Of a DNA stretch of 64,000 bases, positions 40,659 to 57,260 are shown piece by piece. A model generated the notes under the pieces. That model did no database searches and was not told the origin of the DNA. It saw only the letters and a program-made list of their open reading frames with translations. Made by a program: the position numbers and the translations under genes. Numbering within the stretch: the stretch's first letter is position 1; each line of letters opens with the position of its first letter. Source of the DNA: Massalongia carnosa (taxonomy: Eukaryota); contig OZ287073.1 of NCBI GenBank assembly GCA_965645245.1, forward strand, positions 744,001 to 808,000, in the 5' to 3' direction.

Positions 40659-42303
40659 TCAGGTCCTATAATCGCCGTTGATAGTCACGTCTAATTGTTG
40701 TTAGCTAAGGTGACATAGACTAGGGACCGCAACACTTACACTCGTGACTTAAATCGCACGTCCAATAGCTGGCCTCGTTCTCTCTCTGCTCGCCCTTTCC
40801 AAGGTCTACCAATATTTCCAAATCTTCTTCTGCCAGAATCTGAGCCGCTCGTATCTCGTCGGCTGGCTCCGGCTCCCCGTCGACGAGTAATTTCAGGGGC
40901 TCAGTACCATCCTGTGGTACAAAGCTGACGCTCGCTTGTTCTGGTATTATTGTATCATCGTGGCTAAGACCCTGCGTATAGCCAATTGCGCATAAGATAC
41001 GGCCCCAATTGGCGTCTTTGCCGTATAATGCGGTCTTAACGAGAGGGCTGCGAGCAATTGTACTCGCGATGAGCCGCGCATCATCAAAAGATGGAGAATT
41101 AATGACCCGAATACGCACGAACTTTGTGGCTCCTTCCCCGTCGCGGACCACCAACTGAGAAAGCTGTTGGGCGAAATATGTAAGAGTTTTCTGCATCGCT
41201 ATGCCATCTTCCGATGTAAGAGACGTGATAGGGCGCCCCCCAGCTACGCCATTAGCAAGAAGTACGACAGTGTCGTTAGTACTCATATCGCCATCTACAC
41301 AAATAGCGTTGAACGAGCGATCAACAGCGTATGTAAGGAGGGGTTTCAAGGTCGAAGCAGGAATAGGAGCGTCGGTACAGAGAACACCGAGAAGAGTAGC
41401 CATATCAGGAAAGATCATGCCTGCACCTTTTGTCATTCCCGCTAGACTATAAGGTATACCAGGCGAAGAAGGCAGCGTAAAAGTTATAGATAGGAGTTTC
41501 GGGAAGGTGTCGGTGGTACAGATTGCCCCGGCTGTAGTTAGCCACGATTGATGGGAATTGTCGAGGTTTTCGAATGCTTTCGGTACAGCGGAGATGATTT
41601 TTCGAATAGGGAGACGTTGCCTAGGGAATCTTCAGACTTCTCTTGATAAGATGGAGCTTGAACTACTAGATAGTTCTTAAGGTAGAATGCCCTCGCAAGG
41701 TTGTTTACAAACCATCTATTCAAACATGCTGGGAAAGATAATGAAAAGGTACATACCCAATTACACCTGTAGACATTACTAAAGTACTACTTGATAGCTC
41801 TGAGGTCGAGAGAAATTGCTCGTCAACTGCTGCAGCCATATCGGCTGCATCCTGAATCCCATTTTTGCCCGTTATAGCATTTGCGCAACCGGAGTTGATA
41901 ATGACGGCTCTAATCCCCTCCCCACATCGCTTTTGGAGGGTTTCTCGACTGACCGTAACCGGGGCGGCCTGGAATTTGTTTCTTGTAAACACGGCAGCAG
42001 CGGAACAAGGCTTTTCAGATAAAAAAATGGCAAGGTCTGGGAGATGCTTGTTGGACGGCTTTACCCCAACATGAACACCGGAAACGAGGAAGCCTTTAGG
42101 ATAGGACCCCGATGTAGGCACATATTTTTGCTTCGCCGCAGGTATGGCTCCATTGACCGGAGCAGAGTAATACCTGACTTGTTTGAAGGCAAACGAAGTG
42201 TTCCTCCAAGCAATCAAGCCTACAGGATCGGTTAGCTACCAGGAAATGTAGTATAGATAGGATCTATAGCCGTGCATCTACCTCTTTTTGGGCAAGCATT
42301 CAT
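40659..42303 (-). CDS. ARG7: Ornithine acetyltransferase ArgJ/Arg7, mitochondrial
   Basis: [49 protein letters not shown] (autocleavage Thr), [17 protein letters not shown] and INGDYRT. Confidence 0.95.
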
Positions 42304-45753: not shown

Positions 45754-46526
<773 letters not shown>

Positions 46527-47464: not shown

Positions 47465-49005
47465 ATGCCTGCCACACGCGTGACAATTGCCTTAAATTCC
47501 AAGCAATCCCAAAAAGCTCCTCTACTCATCCCTTCTTCCCTTTCATATAACCCAACCTATCACGCTTCATGTCGAGATCTTGTTATCAAAACCGCTCAAT
47601 CAAAGTTGCGGTTGAAAAAGGCTAGTAGGGTGTTCGTTGCTGGCGGTCGAGAGTTGCTGGCACAACAAGATTGGGGGGATGTTTTGAAAGATGATATCGT
47701 GCTTCTTGTCTCGGCAGGAGAGGAGTATGTTGGTTTGGAGAAAGACAAAGGCTCTCTGACTGGAAAGGGGGATGGCCAGAATGGCACGGGATCTGCAGCC
47801 GAATGCCATCCAGATTGCTCAATCAACCTTCTCGCCGAGAGGGCTTTCATTGACTCAATGTCCATTACTCAATTAGAGACTGCCGCTCGGACTTTACCTG
47901 GCATCATTCATGCTGTTGGACAGCCGGACTTGCATCCAGGGACCAAATTTCCCATTGGTGCGGTTTTTGTCTCCGATGGATGGATACATCCACCATTGAT
48001 CGGCGGCGACATCGGTTGTGGCATGTCATGGTATAAGACTCGACTTTCTAGGGCAAATGTCGAAAAAGACAAGGGGCGAAGGGTTGCCGAGAAATTGAGA
48101 GGCTTAGAAGGTGAATGGCGGACGCAGCAAGATCGATTAATCTGGCTACGAGGGGAACCGAACGATAAAGAGCAAAGCTGCAGCGCTGGGGAGAGTTGGG
48201 ACGCCGTGTTAGGAACCATAGGAGCTGGCAACCATTTCGCGGAGATCCAGGTAGTGGAAGAATCCGAATCAGCCCTTGCCGAAAGCAACGGTTCAAAGTC
48301 TCCGCATGAGCTGTACGAAGGAGAAGTGGTTCTTCTGGTTCACTCCGGATCCCGTGGGTACGGAGGAGATATACTGAAACGCTACACCGCCACGGGACAA
48401 GAAAGCCTCCACGAAGCTAATCCCCTTGCCCGTCAATATCTAGAAGAGCACAACCGTGCATGCGCGTGGGCGTCTCGAAATCGGGATTTGATCGCGCTCC
48501 GATTCCTTGCGTGCCTAGAGCCTGGCGACGAGTTATGGGATCTAGGCATCAACGACTTCACGAAGTCGCCCACCTACCTAGAGGAAATCCTAGTTGCCAG
48601 AAGGAATGTCCAAGCCCGAAAAGTTATCGATATCTACCACAACAACGTCGAACCCACGCTCTGGCCCCCGCGCGCCCCACTGGCCATCGTGTCAAGCCCT
48701 CGCACCGCCCAGAAATACGTCTACATCCACCGCAAAGGCGCCGCGCCAACCCACTCCCCAAGCACGCACCTTCCCCTGACCATCCTCCCCCTCCCCGGCT
48801 CCCGCGCCACCCCCACCCTAATCCTGCGACCGACGTTCCCCTCCTCCACCGCCTGGGGCCAGGCCAACGCGCTGAGCCTCGCCCACGGCGCCGGCCGCGC
48901 CATGTCCCGCGCCAAAGCCGTTGGGTACGTGGCGCAGAAATACAAAGGTAACGCCGAGGATCTGCTGCGCGGGGGCTTTACGCGCGTGGACTGGCAGAGC
49001 AACAA

Positions 49006-49043
<38 letters not shown>

Positions 49044-49276
49044 GCGCAACAACGACGATGACCACCGCCACAGCCGGGGAGGACGACGATGGCGACGGCG
49101 AGGCCGTGCATGGAGGGACGTGGGTGGTATGCGAGGACAAGCGGCTAGTGTGGGAGGAGGCGCCGGAGGCGTACAAGGACGTTTGGGCCGTGGGCGGGGA
49201 CCTGGAGGCGGCTGGGGCGGCGGATCGGGTCGGGTGGTGTCGGGCGATGGTGAGTTATAAGGTTCGGAAGGAGTAG
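47465..49276 (+). CDS. rtcB: RtcB-family RNA 3'-phosphate/5'-OH ligase (RtcB2, 'release factor H-coupled' type) with an N-terminal ubiquitin-like domain
   Basis: Intronless. PDLHPG, DIGCG, GTIGAGNHFAE, VHSGSRG, YHN, HRKGA, PGSRA, SLAHGAGR, EEAPEAYK and terminal SYK are all present. Confidence 0.9.
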
Positions 49277-51411: not shown

Positions 51412-52127
51412 ACCCTTCCTTCCCTCTTACAAACCACCAACTCGTGCATACGTCGTACGGGCGTCTACACGTTACGGTTCCCGTGATTGGAAAGGGGTAT
51501 TTCCATCCTCCATCCGGACTGGATCGGGTAGCTAGCACGAGCTACCGATTGGCTGTGTAGGTACAGCTCGGTACAGATACATGCGAGGTGAAATGGTTTA
51601 AGCAAAAAGGCAGGGCAGTGGCGGGGGGGAAGGGGGGAAGGGCTGGAAAATATATACAAGCGTCATCGATTGTAAAAAAAAGTCGAACCTAGTTCATCAT
51701 TTTCGGTGTTTGGAGATCTCCGAGTTCTCTGTACCACTAGCACTTCCGTCATGATGTACGGAGTACTCCGTACTGTCTGTATTTGGCGTCATTAGTTTCG
51801 GATTGTGGGGGAAAGAACGGTTCCCTAAACGCGGGGTTTTTTGGGGGAAGGGGAAATTAACTGGATGTGATTGGTTGGAGAGGAAGAGAGGAAGGAAGGA
51901 AGGAAGAAGGATTTGGGAATTACGGCACAGAACAGGCATCCAGTTGCCTGCTTGGTATCAGTCTATAAATTAATCTGACGAGGAATGTTTCGTAATACCT
52001 ATTTACAGAGTACTCTGTACATAGGTATCTAGTTAGTTGAGCGTATCTTCCAAACGTTCCAAACATTTCCGGGTCGAATTAACTAAGTGATAGATCTGTA
52101 TGACGCTTCTTAGCGCCTGATCTCATA

Positions 52128-54449
52128 ACGTAACTCACTGGGCAACGGGACAAACTGGGCAACGGGACTAAGTAATTCCGAAATCATCACTTTTTAGATG
52201 ATGAAGCCTTCATTACATACATTTTACATACAAATTCAGCTTCAGACATCACAGTAGATTATATTCATCATTTTGAACTTTATAATCATGGGTGTAGGTA
52301 AAAAAACCACCTCCCACAAGACCTCCATTCCTTCATGTTTTCACCCCACCTCCACCTATCAACAACGATTACAGTCAGCCTTTTTGGCCTGGAAACAGGC
52401 CGATGGAGCTCTTTCCATTACGAAGGCAGCTTTTCTATATGATGTTTCAAAGTCTACCCTTCATGCCCGCATTCAGGGTCGTCAATCACGATTTACGTCT
52501 GATCAAACTAAACAACTGCTGACCCCCGAGGAGGAAGACGCTTTGAAGAACTGGGTTTTACAACTGTACGCCTGGGGCTGGCCTGCTAAAATAGCTCAGC
52601 TACGTCAGATGGCCATAGAATTACTACGAGCAAGGGGGAATCATACTGTGCTAGGAGTCAATTGGCAACAGTATTTTTTACATCGTCATCCCGATCTGCA
52701 GGTTAAATACAGTCGCACACTAGATCAAGAACGATTATTCGCTGAGAATGAAGAGATATTTCAGCACTGGTTTGACCTTTTCCTCTCCATGAAAGAAAAG
52801 CACGGAATTCTTGATGAAGACATCTACAACATGGACGAAAAGGGATTCATGATGGGGGTAGCTGCTAGTGCTAAAGTAGTAATTTCTAAGCACGAAAAGC
52901 AAGCCTTTTCAGCACAGTCAGGTAATCGAGAATGGGTGTCATTGATCGAGTCCATTTGTACTACCGGTCGAAGTTTACCTCTTTTCGTCATCTTCAAAGG
53001 AGTCAACAAGCAAAAGGCCTGGTACGATGCACTGGAGGACATTGACACTGAAATAGCTACCAGCGAAAACGGATGGACAGACAATGAACTAGGTCTTGAT
53101 TGGTTGAAAAAGTGTTTTGAACCTGCTACTGCAAAATATCTACACGGTGAATATCGACTTCTTATAGTAGATGGTCATGCTTCCCATATTTCTACCGAAT
53201 TCATCAAGTTTTGTAACGAAAAGAAAATCATTCTTTTGTGTCTACCTCCACATACTACCCATATGTTGCAACCTCTGGACGTGAGTGTTTTTGGGCCCTT
53301 ATCACGGGAGTACAAAAAACAATTGGAGGTCGTCACCCGATTCAACGTCTGTTCAGTGGACAAGGTGGATTTTCTGAAGATCATTCAAAAAGCAAGAAAA
53401 GAAGCAATCAACACAAAAAACGTGCTGACTGCATGGAGAGCAACCGGATTAGTACCATACAATCCCTCATCAGTTCTTCAAAAACTCACTAATAAACAAT
53501 TGGTGTTGCGAAAGACTGATAGCATCATCACCACCACTACCACCACCACCACCACCACCACCACTACTACTACCACCACCACGAATATCACCTCCTCTCA
53601 TCCTAACACTCCGACAACCCTTCAAAACTCTCACGAAATTGAAAAGACACCTGCAAATATCGATCAAATAAATCAACTGATTCGTCGAATTCGAAATGAT
53701 GAAGAATCAGACTCGACTCCCGTTCGAGCGCTAAATAAATTGATAAAAGGCGCTAAATATGCCTTCGCAGACTCTACCTTGCTACGTATCACCAACAACG
53801 AGCTTCTTCAGGCCAATGTACGGCGCCATCATCGAGCCAATCGTAGCGGGGCTCACTATGGAGGAAAGGCTCGAGTTCTAAGCCTTGAAGACGTTCAACA
53901 AAGACAGCAATGGGCCAAAGATAAACAAAAGGTGAAAGACGAAAAAAAGAAGGCCGCTCAGCTAAAACGAGCTGAGCAGGACCTTATCAAAACTTTCAGG
54001 GAAATGTGTCGATTTGGACCTGATTTACTAGGACAAACGTCTACTGCATCTTCGACGAAAAGTCCTCAGAAAAGTCCTCAGAAAGCACCTGATAGTTTAC
54101 AAAGTAAGCCTATTTGTTCTTTTCAAAGACGATTGCTACCTCCTCCCGTGCTTCAACCAATGACAGAAGAGGTAGAGGGGGTGGAGGAGGTGAAGGTGAG
54201 TGGGGGGGTAGAGGTGGAGGTGGAGGTGGTGGATGAGGTGAAGAAGGTTCAAACTACCAGACGGGGTCGTATTGTACGTCAACCACGTAAAATGTGATTA
54301 TGTTGCATGCAGACAAAATATCAATTTCACGTCTAATAGACATTGAAGCCGAATTTGTATGTAAAACGGGTGAGAGGGAGGCTGTAGAAATTAAGCGAAA
54401 TTTAGTTAGTCCCGTTACCCAGTTTGTCCCGTTGCCCAGTAAGTTACGT
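52128..54449 (+). mobile_element. pogo/Fot1-family DNA transposon, apparently intact
   Basis: TA TSD; ~45-bp TIRs ACGTAACTYACTGGGCAACGGGACAAACTGGGYAACGGGACTAA with an internal direct repeat. Confidence 0.96.
52288..54297 (+). CDS. pogo/Fot1 DDE_1 transposase, intact and intronless
   Basis: HTH_psq and CENP-B-type HTH; YNMDEKG, LIVDGHASH and LQPLD catalytic triad; no stops. Confidence 0.95.
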   Translation: MGVGKKTTSHKTSIPSCFHPTSTYQQRLQSAFLAWKQADGALSITKAAFLYDVSKSTLHARIQGRQSRFTSDQTKQLLTPEEEDALKNWVLQLYAWGWPAKIAQLRQMAIELLRARGNHTVLGVNWQQYFLHRHPDLQVKYSRTLDQERLFAENEEIFQHWFDLFLSMKEKHGILDEDIYNMDEKGFMMGVAASAKVVISKHEKQAFSAQSGNREWVSLIESICTTGRSLPLFVIFKGVNKQKAWYDALEDIDTEIATSENGWTDNELGLDWLKKCFEPATAKYLHGEYRLLIVDGHASHISTEFIKFCNEKKIILLCLPPHTTHMLQPLDVSVFGPLSREYKKQLEVVTRFNVCSVDKVDFLKIIQKARKEAINTKNVLTAWRATGLVPYNPSSVLQKLTNKQLVLRKTDSIITTTTTTTTTTTTTTTTTTNITSSHPNTPTTLQNSHEIEKTPANIDQINQLIRRIRNDEESDSTPVRALNKLIKGAKYAFADSTLLRITNNELLQANVRRHHRANRSGAHYGGKARVLSLEDVQQRQQWAKDKQKVKDEKKKAAQLKRAEQDLIKTFREMCRFGPDLLGQTSTASSTKSPQKSPQKAPDSLQSKPICSFQRRLLPPPVLQPMTEEVEGVEEVKVSGGVEVEVEVVDEVKKVQTTRRGRIVRQPRKM

Positions 54450-55071
54450 TAAATAGGGTACAGAGTAGATCCCCAAGTAAGCCAGTCATCCATCGTTCAT
54501 CATCAGATTCCCTACTCGGTACTCTACACCGAGTACACCGTACAGATAACCTTACATCAAGAAAGTCGCACCTCCGTATATTTAAAATAAAAATTAAAAA
54601 ATTAAAATAAAAAAAATACTTCCCCCTCTCCAACCAACCCAAGCGCCCTTCACTCGCTCCTGATACACGGCTCCCCTTCCTCTTCTCTTTTCCCCTAACC
54701 CCAGAATACGGAATAATTGGGGGAATTCGATGAGCTATGTCACATCGTTTCCTCACGTCGTATATGGAATTCTGTACGGAGTACAGTAGATACTGAAACC
54801 TTCCTACCAACAGAGAGGGAGAGAGAGAGAGAAAGAAAGATTCCTAGGTGCTTGTTGCCATTTCGGTACCAAAACCGTCCAAAGACAAAATCCGTCGGGT
54901 TTTGTCATGCTGTGAAAAAGTCTTCGGCACACCCCACCAAAACCAAAATTCCCTTTTACAGCACATTTGTTCCATCTATTCCCTACCCCCCCAAACAACC
55001 GTTTGAAACCTCCAAAATTGCATTAATAATCGATTGATATGTGCTCTATTTGCTACCCGAATTTTGTGGTG

Positions 55072-56158
55072 CTAATACTTTTTATGCCACCTCCGCAGCG
55101 ATAAGTGCTGCCACCCTGCGGGGCATGCTTGCAATCAGTCCATCTATTACCTCCTCACGAATGTTCCCCCATGCCTCCTGCAAAATGCTAACCAGCTTTG
55201 ATTCTGCCTCGTCACCCTTGCCCTCTAGAGAATTGATGTCGGGATAAACTTTGTAGGCCTCTTTCTTGAGAAGGGCCCAAAGATTTTCGATGGGATTTAA
55301 GTCGGGGCTGTAGGGTGGCCAGTCTATTACCTCTATCCCCTATTCCCTAAACCACGCCTTTGTTTTATTCGCTCCATGAATGGGGGCATTATCTGCATGA
55401 AAACAAGACCGGGCGTCCATATTCCTAGCAAGTTGGACTCCAAAACCTGTATGTAGGACTTTGCTGAGTAACCTTGCTTTTTAGACTCCCAATCCCGCTC
55501 CAAAAGATGAAGATCCGACCTTCCCGATCCCCAAAATGCCTCCCATATCATAATACTAAAGGCCTTGCCTTTGGGACCTTCCTGAAGCTTATCACGATCC
55601 CATTTCTGATCAGGAGTTCCAAAAGACCAGTCACGGCCTTTGCCCGAACCCCTTCGCACAGAAGACTCATCTGACCAGATCACAGTTTTCCACTGTTCCA
55701 CCGTCCAGTCCTCGTGTTTTCGTGCCCAATTCAGTCGGAGTTTTGCCAGAGCTGGGGTCAATTTAGGCCGCCTCAAGGCCATCCAATGAGCTATCCCATT
55801 GTTCTTGAGCACCTTGTTGAACGTCTGCCTGCAGATCATCAACCCCAAGGCTGTTTTGATCTGATTCCAACTTGTTTTTGGGTTGATTCGAACATACCGC
55901 AGCACGGATCTGACCGTTCGAGGGGTAACAACAGGCGGCCGGCCGCATCGGGGTCTTTTTCCTCCAGACGGAATTGTTTTGTTCTCTCTGCAAAAAGCTC
56001 TGAATGGTGGTGCGGGAGACGTTCAATTGATGATGAATTTCAGTGGGTATTAAACCCGCCCGGGCGAGGCCTGATATTTGACTTTTTATAAACGTAGATA
56101 ACTCCCTTCGAGGAGTCTTATTAGCAGAGATGGGGGTCAATGGGCTTCGTTTGGGCAT
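55072..56158 (-). pseudogene. Tc1-like (DD34E) transposase relic
   Basis: GRPP, VIWSDES, MQ/DNAPIH and WPPYSPDLNPIENLW with 34 residues between D and E. Frameshifts and an in-frame TAG. No TIR pair recognised. Confidence 0.9.
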
Positions 56159-57260
56159 GGTGATGATGGGTTGAAAAAGATGAGTTTGGGGGAGACGCGA
56201 TTTTTCCCGAAAATTACGCGAAATGACGAACACTTAATCATACCCACGTACAACCCCTGTGGCTAACTAGTTAGTTAGGTATGGATATAACTACAAAGTA
56301 CATAACTTAGTTATAAAGTACCGCGGTATCTAATCGATGTATACCATGGCTCATTTCCCGTACCTGTAACTTAGATCGACAAATTACCTACCCAACTTAT
56401 ACCTTTCCGTATCTAACTAATACCTCAATACCTGCCCTGCAAGACCCCCAGCACAAGGTATCTATCGTGCTATCCAGCCCGTATAGTAACTACAGGGTAC
56501 CGAACCATGTTACGCCATTTCCTTCCTCCATGCGAAAACCAAATCTCGCAACCGGAAATGAGAGGTCGTTTTCGCAAAAAAATGGTACCGACTGCCTCCG
56601 TACGTACAGATGAGATTAAGATGTTGTAGGTGGAGGTTTGGCTATGCAACCGTTACCAAAATAGTTAAGTTGTGGTAACTTGGGACATACCTACCGACAA
56701 CCTCCCTTGATCAGTCTAAACCGATCAACAAACAGTACCTCCCTACAGCCAACCACCTTACAGAGTAACGTTTAGGTATGCAAGCACAATTCAATAGCTA
56801 TAACTCGGACCTCGGAATTCTTGGACGCGGTTCAAAACCCCCGTGCAAACGATACCGGTATGATTGATTAGCTGTTGTGGTGTCTAGGACGTGAACGGAA
56901 TTCCCGCGCCGCCAGGCTCGAGGGTGTAGAGTAGGCAAGGTAGGCTCGGCAAATATGGTTTGCTGTGATTACTATGAGATTCACCCCCAAAAAAAAAATT
57001 TTTCCACCGGCAAACTCTATCACTCAACGGTTCGCGTCAAAGGGGAGGAATGGATCCCCAGGGTACGGAGATTGAAGGGAAAGAAAGAAAGGAGAGAGGG
57101 TATATTCATCGCCGGCTAAAGCATCCCACAGTCTGAGGTAAATACAAACGTTCGCCTGCCCCTGAGAAAAACAAACCAAGCACCCCAATCTCGCTATGCC
57201 CCGCCCCCTGATGCTCCATCAATTTGATTAGGGGTGATTGAATCTATGAAAACGACAAAA

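What the first reader, a model, noticed from the sequence alone, without database searches (positions are those of the whole stretch)
47465..49276. Bacterial RtcB2-type RNA repair ligase in a fungus
Seen: an intronless ORF among intron-rich neighbours, with every RtcB metal- and GMP-binding motif intact (PDLHPG, DIGCG, GNHFAE, HSGSRG, HN, HRKGA, HGAGR, EEAPEAYK). Known: fungi ligate tRNA halves and HAC1 mRNA with Trl1 rather than RtcB. The variants PDLHPG-x3-IGA, GTIG-x-GNHFAE and SLAHGAGR match the bacterial RtcB2 subfamily, which pairs with PrfH to repair ribotoxin-nicked 16S rRNA. No PrfH is visible in this window. Inference: a probably horizontally acquired RNA-repair enzyme with an unknown fungal substrate, such as rRNA or tRNA broken by ribotoxins or stress. 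Similar genes may already be annotated in other fungi, but I know of no functional description.
Basis: partly seen in the sequence, partly recalled or inferred. Interest (0 to 1): 0.8.

Follow-up and report, generated by a model that had tools for sequence, protein, structure and literature searches.

The report
Fungal RtcB2-type RNA ligase gene
A lichen fungus carries an intact gene for an RNA-joining enzyme of the type bacteria use to mend toxin-cut ribosomes; this type is old and widespread in fungi, was already noted in print, and has never been tested in a eukaryote.

Summary
The ORF at 47465..49276 (+) is real.

It belongs to the RtcB2 group, whose bacterial members sit beside prfH, and not to the HSPC117/RTCB tRNA-splicing type.

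It is not a recent or unusual acquisition:
- Full-length orthologues occur across lichen Lecanoromycetes and Dothideomycetes.
- More distant ones occur in chytrids, Mortierellomycota, a basidiomycete, Nuclearia, protist transcriptomes and Selaginella.
- The upstream Arf GTPase neighbour is shared with another lichen fungus.

My trees do not settle the direction of transfer.

All the eukaryotic forms share an N-terminal ~95-aa beta-grasp domain resembling CIDE-N, DCX and PB1. The bacterial proteins lack it, and I found no description of it.

No functional study turned up.

Most likely function: a GTP/Mn-dependent 3'-phosphate/5'-OH RNA repair ligase, possibly acting on the ribosome. Expression, Trl1 and PrfH in the rest of the genome could not be checked.

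The parts
47465..49276 (+). Complete intronless gene for a 603-aa RtcB2-type RNA ligase (ATG to stop)
   Evidence: ORF list. Pfam RtcB E = 7.4e-48. Full-length orthologues at 54-71% identity, most at 100% coverage. AF2 model with mean pLDDT 89.2 and pTM 0.81.
47465..47749 (+). N-terminal beta-grasp (ubiquitin-like) domain, aa 1-95, specific to the eukaryotic members
   Evidence: Alignment A2: R5, K47, S83 and G90 invariant in 35 sequences. AF2 blocks for residues 1-90 have pLDDT 91-97, with a b-b-a-b-a-b order. Foldseek top hit is the Drep4 CIDE domain, E = 9.4e-4. VIA-align gives FSP27 CIDE-N Z 9.9 (rmsd 2.0, 77 aligned), DCX Z 8.9 and PB1 Z 8.4. No Pfam family passes its cut-off.
47750..47815 (+). 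Low-confidence Gly/Ser-rich linker, aa 96-117
   Evidence: pLDDT below 50 for residues 96-106 and for 96-111 and 113-115 in the N-terminal model. Length varies among homologues.
47816..49273 (+). RtcB catalytic domain, aa 118-603, with Pezizomycotina-specific inserts
   Evidence: Bacterial RtcB2-like proteins of 360-400 aa match from about query residue 120 onward. Foldseek matches P. horikoshii RtcB-GMP/Mn at E = 1.9e-26 and human RTCB at E = 9e-25. Invariant columns include D155, C185, N256, H257, H293, H392, H422 and H474 in 54 sequences.
48017..48019 (+). Codon of Cys185 in GGDIGCG; expected metal ligand (role recalled from RtcB structures)
   Evidence: Invariant in 54 of 54 aligned sequences. 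Aligned with the INCG cysteine of RTCB chains in the phmmer alignment.
48884..48886 (+). Codon of His474 in HGAGR; expected GMP-accepting nucleophile
   Evidence: Invariant. Aligned to HGAGR of RTCB chains. In 76 bacterial RtcB2 ORFs the same His has a median position of 298.5 (292-308 in four PrfH-coupled ORFs checked; range over all 76: 274-373). This fits the essential H294 of E. coli RtcB2 mutated by Tian et al. 2022.
49006..49041 (+). In-frame hexanucleotide microsatellite (AGCCCG)x6, encoding (AR)6 inside a species-specific disordered insert
   Evidence: TRF: period 6, 6.0 copies, 100% matches. ARARARARARAR lies at aa 515-526. The insert is absent from the homologues. pLDDT is below 50 at 530-545. 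Public contigs break at 48998-49071.
45799..46516 (+). Upstream neighbour: Arf-family small GTPase gene in at least two exon pieces; a conserved neighbour of the ligase gene
   Evidence: tblastn of P0078 (a fused Arf+RtcB gene model from Alectoria sarmentosa) hits 45799-46263 at 85% identity, then 46403-46516, then the ligase at 47600-49273.

Best explanation
The gene encodes an active two-domain enzyme.

The C-terminal 485 residues form an RtcB-family ligase of the RtcB2 group. By family chemistry it should:
1. use GTP and Mn2+ to guanylylate His474;
2. transfer GMP to an RNA 3'-phosphate, after opening a 2',3'-cyclic phosphate;
3. let a 5'-OH attack, sealing the break.

The N-terminal 95 residues form a beta-grasp module resembling CIDE-N, DCX and PB1. 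It is present in all the eukaryotic members sampled except P0179 and absent from the bacterial ones. I infer it is an adaptor that brings the ligase to its substrate particle or to a partner protein. That would fill the place that coupling to the release-factor homologue PrfH fills in bacteria.

The most likely job is repair of endonuclease-cut, structured RNA, independent of the Trl1 tRNA-splicing ligase. Cuts would come from ribotoxins or stress. The small-subunit rRNA decoding centre is the leading single candidate substrate, by analogy with bacterial RtcB2.

The gene is a long-resident fungal gene, not a recent transfer.

Shown here: gene integrity, motifs, fold, subfamily grouping, the N-terminal domain and its conservation, wide eukaryotic distribution, and synteny.

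Inferred: catalytic activity, the adaptor role and the substrate.

My odds:
- active 3'-P/5'-OH RNA ligase: about 0.85
- repair role distinct from tRNA splicing: about 0.7
- 18S rRNA or the ribosome as the main substrate: about 0.35
For: Gene and family:
- The ORF is intact with all motifs.
- Pfam RtcB scores E = 7.4e-48.
- The full-length AF2 model (pLDDT 89.2) matches RtcB-GMP/Mn and human RTCB structures at E = 1e-23 to 1e-26.
- D155, C185, N256, H257, H293, H392, H422 and H474 are invariant in 54 of 54 aligned eukaryotic and bacterial sequences. Conservation across fungi argues for purifying selection.

Subfamily:
- NF007153 scores 266 bits and TIGR03073 release_rtcB 216 bits, the best NCBIfam models.
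- Solved RtcB1/HSPC117-type chains reach at most 71 bits.
- Of the 80 closest bacterial loci, 66 had a downstream ORF that I tested, and 48 of those 66 are TIGR03072 PrfH above cut-off.
- The window protein groups with these bacteria, apart from the RtcB1-like paralogues: SH-aLRT 98 in the 125-row tree and 100/100 in the 81-row tree.

Function of characterised relatives (passages read):
- E. coli RtcB2 repairs colicin-E3-type cuts between A1493 and G1494 in 30S subunits but not damaged tRNAs (PMC9304027).
- RtcB2 alone repairs cleaved 30S and 70S particles, and PrfH only speeds repair of translating ribosomes (PMC13166195). Lack of PrfH therefore need not abolish the activity.
- Fungi use Trl1 for tRNA and HAC1 splicing (PMC10946435; PMC13247085), which leaves this enzyme free for another role.

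N-terminal domain.

Residency in the fungal genome:
- 70% identity to Pseudocyphellaria aurata.
- Lecanoromycete and Dothideomycete clades are recovered at 100/99 and 100/96.
- The Arf neighbour is shared with Alectoria.
Against: - No activity, expression or substrate data exist for any eukaryotic member that I could find.
- The window protein scores below the curated NCBIfam cut-offs for both RtcB2-type models: 266 against 407, and 216 against 271.8. It is a diverged relative, not an equivalog.
- It carries lineage-specific inserts and a disordered low-complexity stretch.
- No PrfH is in the window. Tian et al. state that PrfH occurs only in bacteria and that no eukaryotic ColE3-like toxin is known. 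The 18S-repair analogy therefore has no known damaging agent.
- CIDE-N, DCX and PB1 domains are protein-protein modules, and the fold alone says nothing about ribosome binding. VIA-align Z of 8-10 is only a little above that tool's usual background of 7-8.
- The ORF is more GC-rich than its neighbours: GC 0.575 and GC3 0.607, against 0.47-0.50 and 0.44-0.56.
- The whole genome is not held, so the presence of Trl1 in this organism is assumed, not shown.
Confidence: 0.6

Rival explanations
1. It is a general repair ligase for tRNA or mRNA, not rRNA. It would reseal tRNA anticodon loops cut by killer-toxin anticodon nucleases or stress RNases, or act as a back-up to Trl1. The N-terminal domain would serve regulation or localisation.
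For: RtcB enzymes in general seal 2',3'-cyclic-phosphate/5'-OH ends of tRNA and mRNA. E. coli RtcB can replace yeast TRL1 (PMC10946435, passages). Yeast Trl1 is said to repair toxin-cut tRNA in nature (same passages), so such damage is real for fungi. The eukaryotic group is well separated from the bacterial PrfH-coupled clade, which forms one clade at 100/99, so specificity may have changed.
Against: The characterised RtcB2 did not repair damaged tRNAs (PMC9304027 abstract). Trl1 already covers tRNA repair in fungi, so long-term retention of a second enzyme for the same job needs explaining.
Confidence: 0.25
2. It is the organism's tRNA-splicing/HAC1 ligase, replacing Trl1, as HSPC117/RTCB does in animals.
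For: It has all the catalytic residues of an RtcB ligase. Presence of Trl1 in this genome could not be checked.
Against: It is not of the HSPC117 type: human RTCB reaches at most 69 bits and about 20% structure-alignment identity. Pezizomycotina studied so far have Trl1 (PMC5029449, abstract only). Reviews state that fungi rely on Trl1. The distribution across fungi is patchy and not essential-gene-like, since Mucorales genomes searched by others had no RTCB homologue.
Confidence: 0.03
3. It is a recent horizontal transfer from bacteria into this fungus, or bacterial contamination of the assembly.
For: Its GC and GC3 are higher than those of neighbouring genes. It has no introns. The family is mostly bacterial.
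Against: Orthologues at 54-71% identity occur throughout Lecanoromycetes and Dothideomycetes. The fungal tree is congruent with classes. The eukaryote-only N-terminal domain is present. The gene sits between fungal genes with introns, and the Arf neighbour is shared with Alectoria. The closest bacterial proteins are only 34-43% identical. The locus has flat, single-copy depth continuous with its neighbours in public contigs.
Confidence: 0.02
4. It is mainly an end-modifying enzyme rather than a ligase. It would cap 5'-phosphate RNA or DNA ends with GMP, or act on DNA 3'-phosphate ends. Such activity was reported for a Myxococcus RtcB paralogue (recalled from Maughan and Shuman 2015, which I could not read).
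For: Myxococcaceae members without a prfH neighbour lie in the same RtcB2-type group. The chemistry uses the same active site.
Against: I could not establish which Myxococcus paralogue corresponds to this group. The only characterised members known to me from papers I read are true rRNA ligases.
Confidence: 0.05

Closest known systems
Bacterial RtcB2 of the rtcB2-prfH operon (E. coli ATCC25922 RtcB2; NCBIfam TIGR03073 / NF007153)
   Same: It shares the RtcB subgroup on the best-scoring NCBIfam models and in both trees. The catalytic motifs are the same, including SLAHGAGR and GTIGxGNHFAE. The catalytic core is compact, and bacterial proteins of 360-400 aa align from residue ~120 to the C-terminus.
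   Different: Identity is only 34-43%, and scores fall below both curated cut-offs. There is no prfH partner. It has an extra N-terminal beta-grasp domain and Pezizomycotina-specific inserts. It is a monocistronic eukaryotic nuclear gene. The substrate is untested.
Eukaryotic RtcB2s noted by Tian et al. 2022 (PNAS, PMC9304027)
   Same: This is the same class. That paper counted 98 RtcB2 sequences in eukaryotes, mostly fungi and plants, and predicted 40S repair without PrfH (Discussion passage). The window's gene is a further member.
   Different: The paper gives no domain analysis, phylogeny within eukaryotes or experiment in the passages I saw. Its SI figures were not read.
HSPC117/RTCB, the metazoan and archaeal tRNA-splicing ligase, and E. 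coli RtcB (RtcB1)
   Same: The overall fold and active-site residues are shared. GTP/Mn-dependent 3'-P/5'-OH ligation chemistry is presumably shared too.
   Different: The relationship is distant: 64-71 bits and 17-22% identity in structure alignments. RtcB1-like bacterial paralogues form the outgroup at 98 and 100/100 support. There is no evidence of tRNA-ligase-complex partners or Archease.
CIDE-N, DCX and PB1 beta-grasp interaction domains
   Same: The N-terminal 92 residues adopt the same fold: FSP27 CIDE-N Z 9.9, rmsd 2.0 over 77 residues; DCX Z 8.9; PB1 Z 8.4. Foldseek's top hit is the Drep4 CIDE domain. Weak Pfam echoes appear: Ubiquitin_DCDC1 in 2 of 35 members, best E = 2.6e-4, and KHA and CIDE-N at E = 0.04-0.24 in relatives.
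   Different: No Pfam family passes its threshold, and sequence identity is 10-16%. The domain's own conserved residues (R5, T7, N11, K47, L48, G61, E63, S83, G85, E86, G90) are not known signatures of those families to my knowledge.

Membership tests
RtcB family (Pfam PF01139) | Profile score above Pfam's gathering threshold | tested here: met
   164.2 bits against a cut-off of 27; E = 7.4e-48.
RtcB family (Pfam PF01139) | Conserved metal-binding Asp/Cys/His residues and the GMP-accepting His (roles recalled from RtcB structures) | tested here: met
   D155, C185, N256, H257, H293, H392, H422 and H474 are invariant in 54 of 54 sequences. Motifs align with RTCB chains.
RtcB family (Pfam PF01139) | RtcB fold | tested here: met
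   The AF2 model (pLDDT 89.2) matches 4dwq_A RtcB-GMP/Mn at E = 1.9e-26 and TMt 0.60, and 8odp_A human RTCB at TMt 0.62.
RtcB family (Pfam PF01139) | GTP/Mn2+-dependent sealing of 3'-P or 2',3'-cyclic-P with 5'-OH RNA ends | not testable with these tools
   Needs a biochemical assay.
RtcB2 / 'release factor H-coupled RtcB' (NCBIfam TIGR03073, NF007153) | Score above the curated NCBIfam cut-off | tested here: not met
   TIGR03073 scores 215.7 against 271.8, and NF007153 scores 266.3 against 407. They are the best two models, but both are below cut-off. I file the protein as a diverged eukaryotic relative of the RtcB2 group, not as an equivalog.
RtcB2 / 'release factor H-coupled RtcB' (NCBIfam TIGR03073, NF007153) | Phylogenetic grouping with PrfH-coupled RtcBs, apart from RtcB1-type paralogues | tested here: met
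   The split from 8 RtcB1-like paralogues has SH-aLRT 98 (125 rows). The split from 6 paralogues has 100/100 (81 rows). Eukaryotic HSPC117 and archaeal sequences could not be put in the tree.
RtcB2 / 'release factor H-coupled RtcB' (NCBIfam TIGR03073, NF007153) | Adjacent prfH gene | tested here: not met
   No PrfH-like sequence is in the 64-kb window; best tblastn E = 0.3 with 8 PrfH queries. The rest of the genome is not held. Among bacterial relatives, 48 of 66 tested downstream ORFs are PrfH.
RtcB2 / 'release factor H-coupled RtcB' (NCBIfam TIGR03073, NF007153) | Specific repair of small-subunit rRNA cut in the decoding centre | not testable with these tools
   Known only for E. coli RtcB2.
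HSPC117/RTCB tRNA-splicing ligase (eukaryotic/archaeal type) | Closest similarity to the HSPC117/archaeal RtcB lineage | tested here: not met
   Human, zebrafish and Pyrococcus chains reach only 64-71 bits. Unnamed proteins of 360-400 aa that match from about query residue 120 reach 140-190 bits. Of those placed in the trees, P0185 was not included, and named bacterial RtcB2s are 34-43% identical to the window protein.
CIDE-N / DCX / PB1 beta-grasp domains | Beta-grasp fold with best structural matches in these families | tested here: met
   Z 9.9, 9.6, 8.9 and 8.4; Foldseek E = 9.4e-4.
CIDE-N / DCX / PB1 beta-grasp domains | Sequence-profile membership in one of these Pfam families | tested here: inconclusive
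   The window's domain gave 0 families at E <= 1. Only sub-threshold hits appeared in relatives: PF25510 in 2 of 35; KHA and CIDE-N at E = 0.04-0.24.

The most novel reading that the evidence does not exclude
Eukaryotic RtcB2 proteins may be an ancient, PrfH-independent ribosome-repair system. The conserved N-terminal CIDE-N/DCX-like beta-grasp domain would dock the ligase onto damaged 40S or 80S particles, or onto the eukaryotic ribosome-rescue machinery. The catalytic domain would then reseal a cut in 18S rRNA. This would be the first enzymatic rRNA repair pathway in eukaryotes, and it would imply that eukaryote-targeting decoding-centre ribotoxins remain undiscovered. The unstable root also leaves open that the eukaryotic and bacterial RtcB2 lineages are sister groups, rather than one being nested in the other.
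Probability: 0.25. Interest if true: 0.8.

Novelty: new member of a known kind. Interest (0 to 1): 0.4.

Why it matters
[quoted passage not shown] A second, uncharacterised RtcB lineage is nevertheless conserved from chytrids to lichen fungi.

If it repairs ribosomes or other toxin-cut RNAs, it would show RNA repair as a defence in fungi and point to unknown ribotoxins acting on them. It also bears on Trl1 as an antifungal target, because a second ligase with the right end chemistry could in principle bypass it.

The N-terminal domain gives a concrete handle for finding the substrate or partner. For this window alone, the gene is one more member of a class already flagged in 2022.

Tried and rejected
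- **Whole-genome search for TRL1, PrfH and other RtcB copies:** no genome is held for this window.
- **Expression:** no RNA holder is listed. The four runs laid are contigs with flat DNA-like depth and cannot show transcription.
- **Naming the unnamed representative proteins:** Names came from two further homologue searches instead. P0122, P0128, P0130, P0138, P0144, P0171 and P0179 remain unnamed, and I counted them as eukaryotic. For all but P0179 this rests on the N-terminal domain. P0179 has no N-terminal domain, and its label rests only on its place in the tree.
- **Homodimer test of the N-terminal domain (two copies, residues 1-95):** no answer; score 0.00 against a mark of 0.32. This is not evidence either way.
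- **Papers not held:** Burroughs and Aravind 2016 NAR and Maughan and Shuman 2015. Either may already describe the eukaryotic architecture or the Myxococcus member of this group. The SI of Tian et al. 2022 was not read.
- **Literature search:** a broad search on fungal genus names returned nothing relevant. 'RtcB' with 'beta-grasp' gave 4 papers; by their titles and abstract openings none is about this domain.
- **Polarising the transfer:**
  - The 125-row quick tree puts the eukaryotes as one clade inside bacteria (99 SH-aLRT), rooted next to the long branch of L079.
  - The 81-row careful tree puts the root among the eukaryotes, with bacteria as one clade (100/99).
  - The AU test does not reject eukaryotes plus L026 as one clade (p = 0.099, delta lnL 33.7).
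  - No direction can be claimed.
- **Rows dropped before the trees:** 4 of 80 bacterial ORFs shorter than 340 aa (L054, L056, L060, L069). For the 81-row tree, 36 further bacterial L-rows, 5 named bacterial proteins and 2 long outgroups (L091, L095).
- **Earlier findings of this scan, by sequence:** nothing.
- **Mitochondrial targeting:** considered and set aside. Residues 3-10 are already the first strand of the folded domain.
Full report
**Observation**

The window holds an uninterrupted ORF at 47465..49276 (+) of 603 aa. The ATG sits at 47465 and the protein starts MPATR, matching its homologues. The only slip is that four residues, not three, separate PDLHPG from IGA. Pfam RtcB scores 164 bits, E = 7.4e-48. 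A full-length AlphaFold model built on a 54-sequence alignment has mean pLDDT 89.2 and pTM 0.81. It matches solved RtcB structures: P. horikoshii RtcB-GMP/Mn at E = 1.9e-26 and human RTCB at E = 9e-25.

**Which RtcB**

- The best NCBIfam models are NF007153 'RNA ligase RtcB family' (266 bits) and TIGR03073 'release_rtcB' (216 bits). Both are below their curated cut-offs of 407 and 271.8.
- All solved RtcB chains are of the RtcB1/HSPC117 type. They reach only 64-71 bits.
The best 80 loci are all bacterial, with ORFs mostly of 360-400 aa.
- I tested the ORF immediately downstream in 66 of these loci. In 48 of the 66 it is TIGR03072 PrfH above cut-off.
- Fourteen other loci had no downstream ORF of 100 aa or more. 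Six of those loci end within about 500 bases of the gene.
- The closest bacterial relatives are therefore the PrfH-coupled RtcB2s.

**Distribution**

- The first homologue search found 3055 proteins at E <= 0.001 among 8000 scored candidates. Every listed row that carries a name is a fungus.
- Lichen-forming Lecanoromycetes score 54-71% identity, with Pseudocyphellaria aurata at 70%. Dothideomycetes and allies score about 54-57%. Most of these rows cover 100% of the query.
- A search with a more distant full-length relative, P0141 from the chytrid Phlyctochytrium arcticum, named further members:
  - other chytrids, Hyaloraphidium and many Mortierellomycota;
  - Calcarisporiella and Basidiobolus;
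  - the basidiomycete Phenoliferia;
  - Nuclearia (transcript);
  - the lycophyte Selaginella moellendorffii.
- Only after these come bacterial proteins, at 48-54% identity over the catalytic part.
- Two protist transcripts in EukProt, P0160 and P0384, carry the same N-terminal domain followed by a ~200-aa insert.
- Several entries are already named 'release factor H-coupled RctB family protein'.

**Residency in this genome**

- The gene lies between fungal genes with introns. ArgJ at 40720-42235 (-) is in two ORF pieces. An Arf GTPase at 45799-46516 (+) is in at least two pieces.
- The Arf-then-ligase order is shared with Alectoria sarmentosa, where the two genes were merged into one gene model, P0078.
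- Public contigs cover the locus at flat depth continuous with its neighbours.
- The ORF is somewhat more GC-rich than its neighbours: GC3 0.607 against 0.44-0.56. Part of this comes from a GC-rich microsatellite, (AGCCCG)x6 at 49006-49041. It encodes (AR)6 inside a species-specific disordered insert.
- Recent transfer or contamination is excluded.

**Trees**

- *Tree 1*: quick PMSF search, 125 rows, 379 columns.
  - It separates the RtcB2-type sequences from eight RtcB1-like bacterial paralogues (SH-aLRT 98). The paralogues came from the genomes of five of the loci.
  - It places all 34 eukaryotic rows plus one odd bacterial-labelled row, L026, in one clade (SH-aLRT 99) among the bacterial sequences.
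- *Tree 2*: careful PMSF search, 81 rows, 384 columns, 1000 ultrafast bootstraps. The bootstrap had not fully settled (correlation 0.977).
  - The outgroup is recovered at 100/100 and the 40 bacterial RtcB2s as one clade at 100/99.
  - The root falls inside an unresolved eukaryotic grade.
  - Pezizomycotina, together with unnamed P0122, P0128 and P0130, are supported at 100/99. Lecanoromycetes get 100/99, the Dothideomycete-type set 100/96, and window plus Pseudocyphellaria 99/92.
- The AU test does not reject eukaryotes plus L026 as one clade (p = 0.099, delta lnL 33.7).
- Robust conclusions: the window protein belongs to the RtcB2 group, the eukaryotic and bacterial members are distinct sets, and descent within fungi looks vertical.
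- Not robust: which set is derived from which.
- Human and archaeal RtcB sequences could not be placed in the tree, because no tool returned them as usable sequences. For those, the evidence is the low scores.
- L026 is a 2775-base contig labelled cov_0.83 from a 'Bdellovibrionota' MAG. It has an integrase-like ORF beside the gene, no N-terminal domain and a frame break. Its long branch (1.24-1.28) makes its position unsafe.

**The N-terminal domain**

- Residues 1-95 align across all 35 eukaryotic sequences examined. R5, K47, S83 and G90 are invariant. T7, N11, L48, G61, E63, G85 and E86 are nearly invariant.
- Bacterial proteins start at about residue 118 of the window protein.
- The domain folds confidently alone, with pLDDT 91-97 for residues 1-90, as a b-b-a-b-a-b beta-grasp.
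- Foldseek's best hit is the Drep4 CIDE domain (E = 9.4e-4), followed by DCX domains, FAT10 and ubiquitin.
- The Foldseek-independent search gives FSP27 CIDE-N Z 9.9 (rmsd 2.0, 77 residues), DREP3 Z 9.6, DCX Z 8.9 and PB1 Z 8.4. These values are only modestly above that tool's stated background of 7-8.
- No Pfam family passes threshold. There are faint echoes only: Ubiquitin_DCDC1 in 2 of 35 members, and KHA and CIDE-N at E = 0.04-0.24 in relatives.
- These families are protein-protein interaction or oligomerisation modules. This is a lead, not a function.
- I found no paper describing the domain. Burroughs and Aravind 2016 could not be read.

**What is known**

- Tian et al. 2022 (PMC9304027; abstract and passages read) defined RtcB2 as a separate similarity cluster, mostly encoded with PrfH.
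- They showed that E. coli RtcB2 repairs 30S subunits cut between A1493 and G1494 but not damaged tRNAs.
- Their Discussion states that 98 RtcB2s occur in eukaryotes, mostly fungi and plants. It predicts these repair the 40S subunit, while noting that PrfH is bacterial only and that no eukaryotic ColE3-like toxin is known.
- A 2026 paper (PMC13166195; abstract and passages) shows that RtcB2 alone repairs cleaved 30S and 70S particles, and that PrfH only accelerates repair of translating ribosomes.
[quoted passage not shown] - Full-text searches gave no paper for 'fungal RtcB' or 'release factor H-coupled', and only Tian et al. for 'eukaryotic RtcB2'.

**Mechanism**

The invariant Asp/Cys/His/Asn set and HGAGR support an active enzyme. 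So does the position of the HGAGR histidine in bacterial RtcB2s, at 292-308 in four PrfH-coupled ORFs checked, which fits the essential H294 of E. coli RtcB2. I expect a GTP/Mn-dependent 3'-phosphate/5'-OH RNA ligase. The roles of individual residues are recalled from RtcB structural work, not tested here.

Fungi have Trl1 for splicing, so a repair role is most likely. By analogy the decoding-centre cut in small-subunit rRNA is the leading single candidate, but it lacks a known damaging agent in eukaryotes. The N-terminal domain is best read as a targeting or partner-binding module.

**Verdict**

The gene is real and intact. The subfamily call is correct. 'Horizontal acquisition' is at best ancient and of unproven direction. 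The class is already noted in the literature, and this gene is a new member of it. The shared eukaryote-specific beta-grasp domain and the wide, old distribution are the useful additions. Interest is moderate.

Noticed in passing
window 51870-56220 (ORF 52258..54297 +; ORF 55333..56022 -): Multi-copy transposon region. A 679-aa ORF carries DDE_1, HTH_Tnp_Tc5 and HTH_psq domains (pogo/Tc5-like transposase), and a second ORF has a Tc3-type HTH. Summed contig depth here is roughly 4 to 300 times that of the flanks in runs X1-X3, with many variant letters.
   Followed up: partly
window 49006-49041: An (AGCCCG)x6 microsatellite lies inside the ligase ORF and encodes (AR)6. Contigs of three public runs (X1-X3) break at 48998-49071, so copy number may vary or be hard to assemble.
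   Followed up: partly
window 45799-46516 (+) and protein P0078: An Arf-family GTPase gene lies just upstream of the ligase gene. In Alectoria sarmentosa the two genes are annotated as one 716-aa fusion protein, probably a gene-model merge.
   Followed up: partly
window 40720-42235 (-): ArgJ (ornithine acetyltransferase) gene in two ORF pieces separated by about 88 bases, consistent with one intron.
   Followed up: no
L026 (2775-bp contig of a MAG labelled Bdellovibrionota): This RtcB2-type gene groups with the eukaryotic sequences rather than with the 40 other bacteria in the 81-row tree (76 bacterial loci plus 7 named bacterial proteins in the 125-row tree), on a long branch. It has no N-terminal domain, an integrase-like ORF upstream and a frame break near the 3' end. 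It could be a mis-binned contig or a genuine intermediate.
   Followed up: partly
proteins P0160, P0384, P0171, P0320, P0146, P0153: Variant architectures among the eukaryotic relatives. Protist transcripts have a ~200-aa unassigned insert between the beta-grasp and RtcB domains (P0160 and P0384; P0171 is similar). A Terramyces protein has a C-terminal BTB domain. Two long proteins have N-terminal arrestin-like or histone-deacetylase parts that may be merged gene models.
   Followed up: partly
protein P0149 (Selaginella moellendorffii): A land-plant protein with the same beta-grasp plus RtcB2 architecture sits among chytrid and other early fungal sequences in the trees. I did not test whether it is plant-inherited, transferred from a fungus, or a contaminant.
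   Followed up: no
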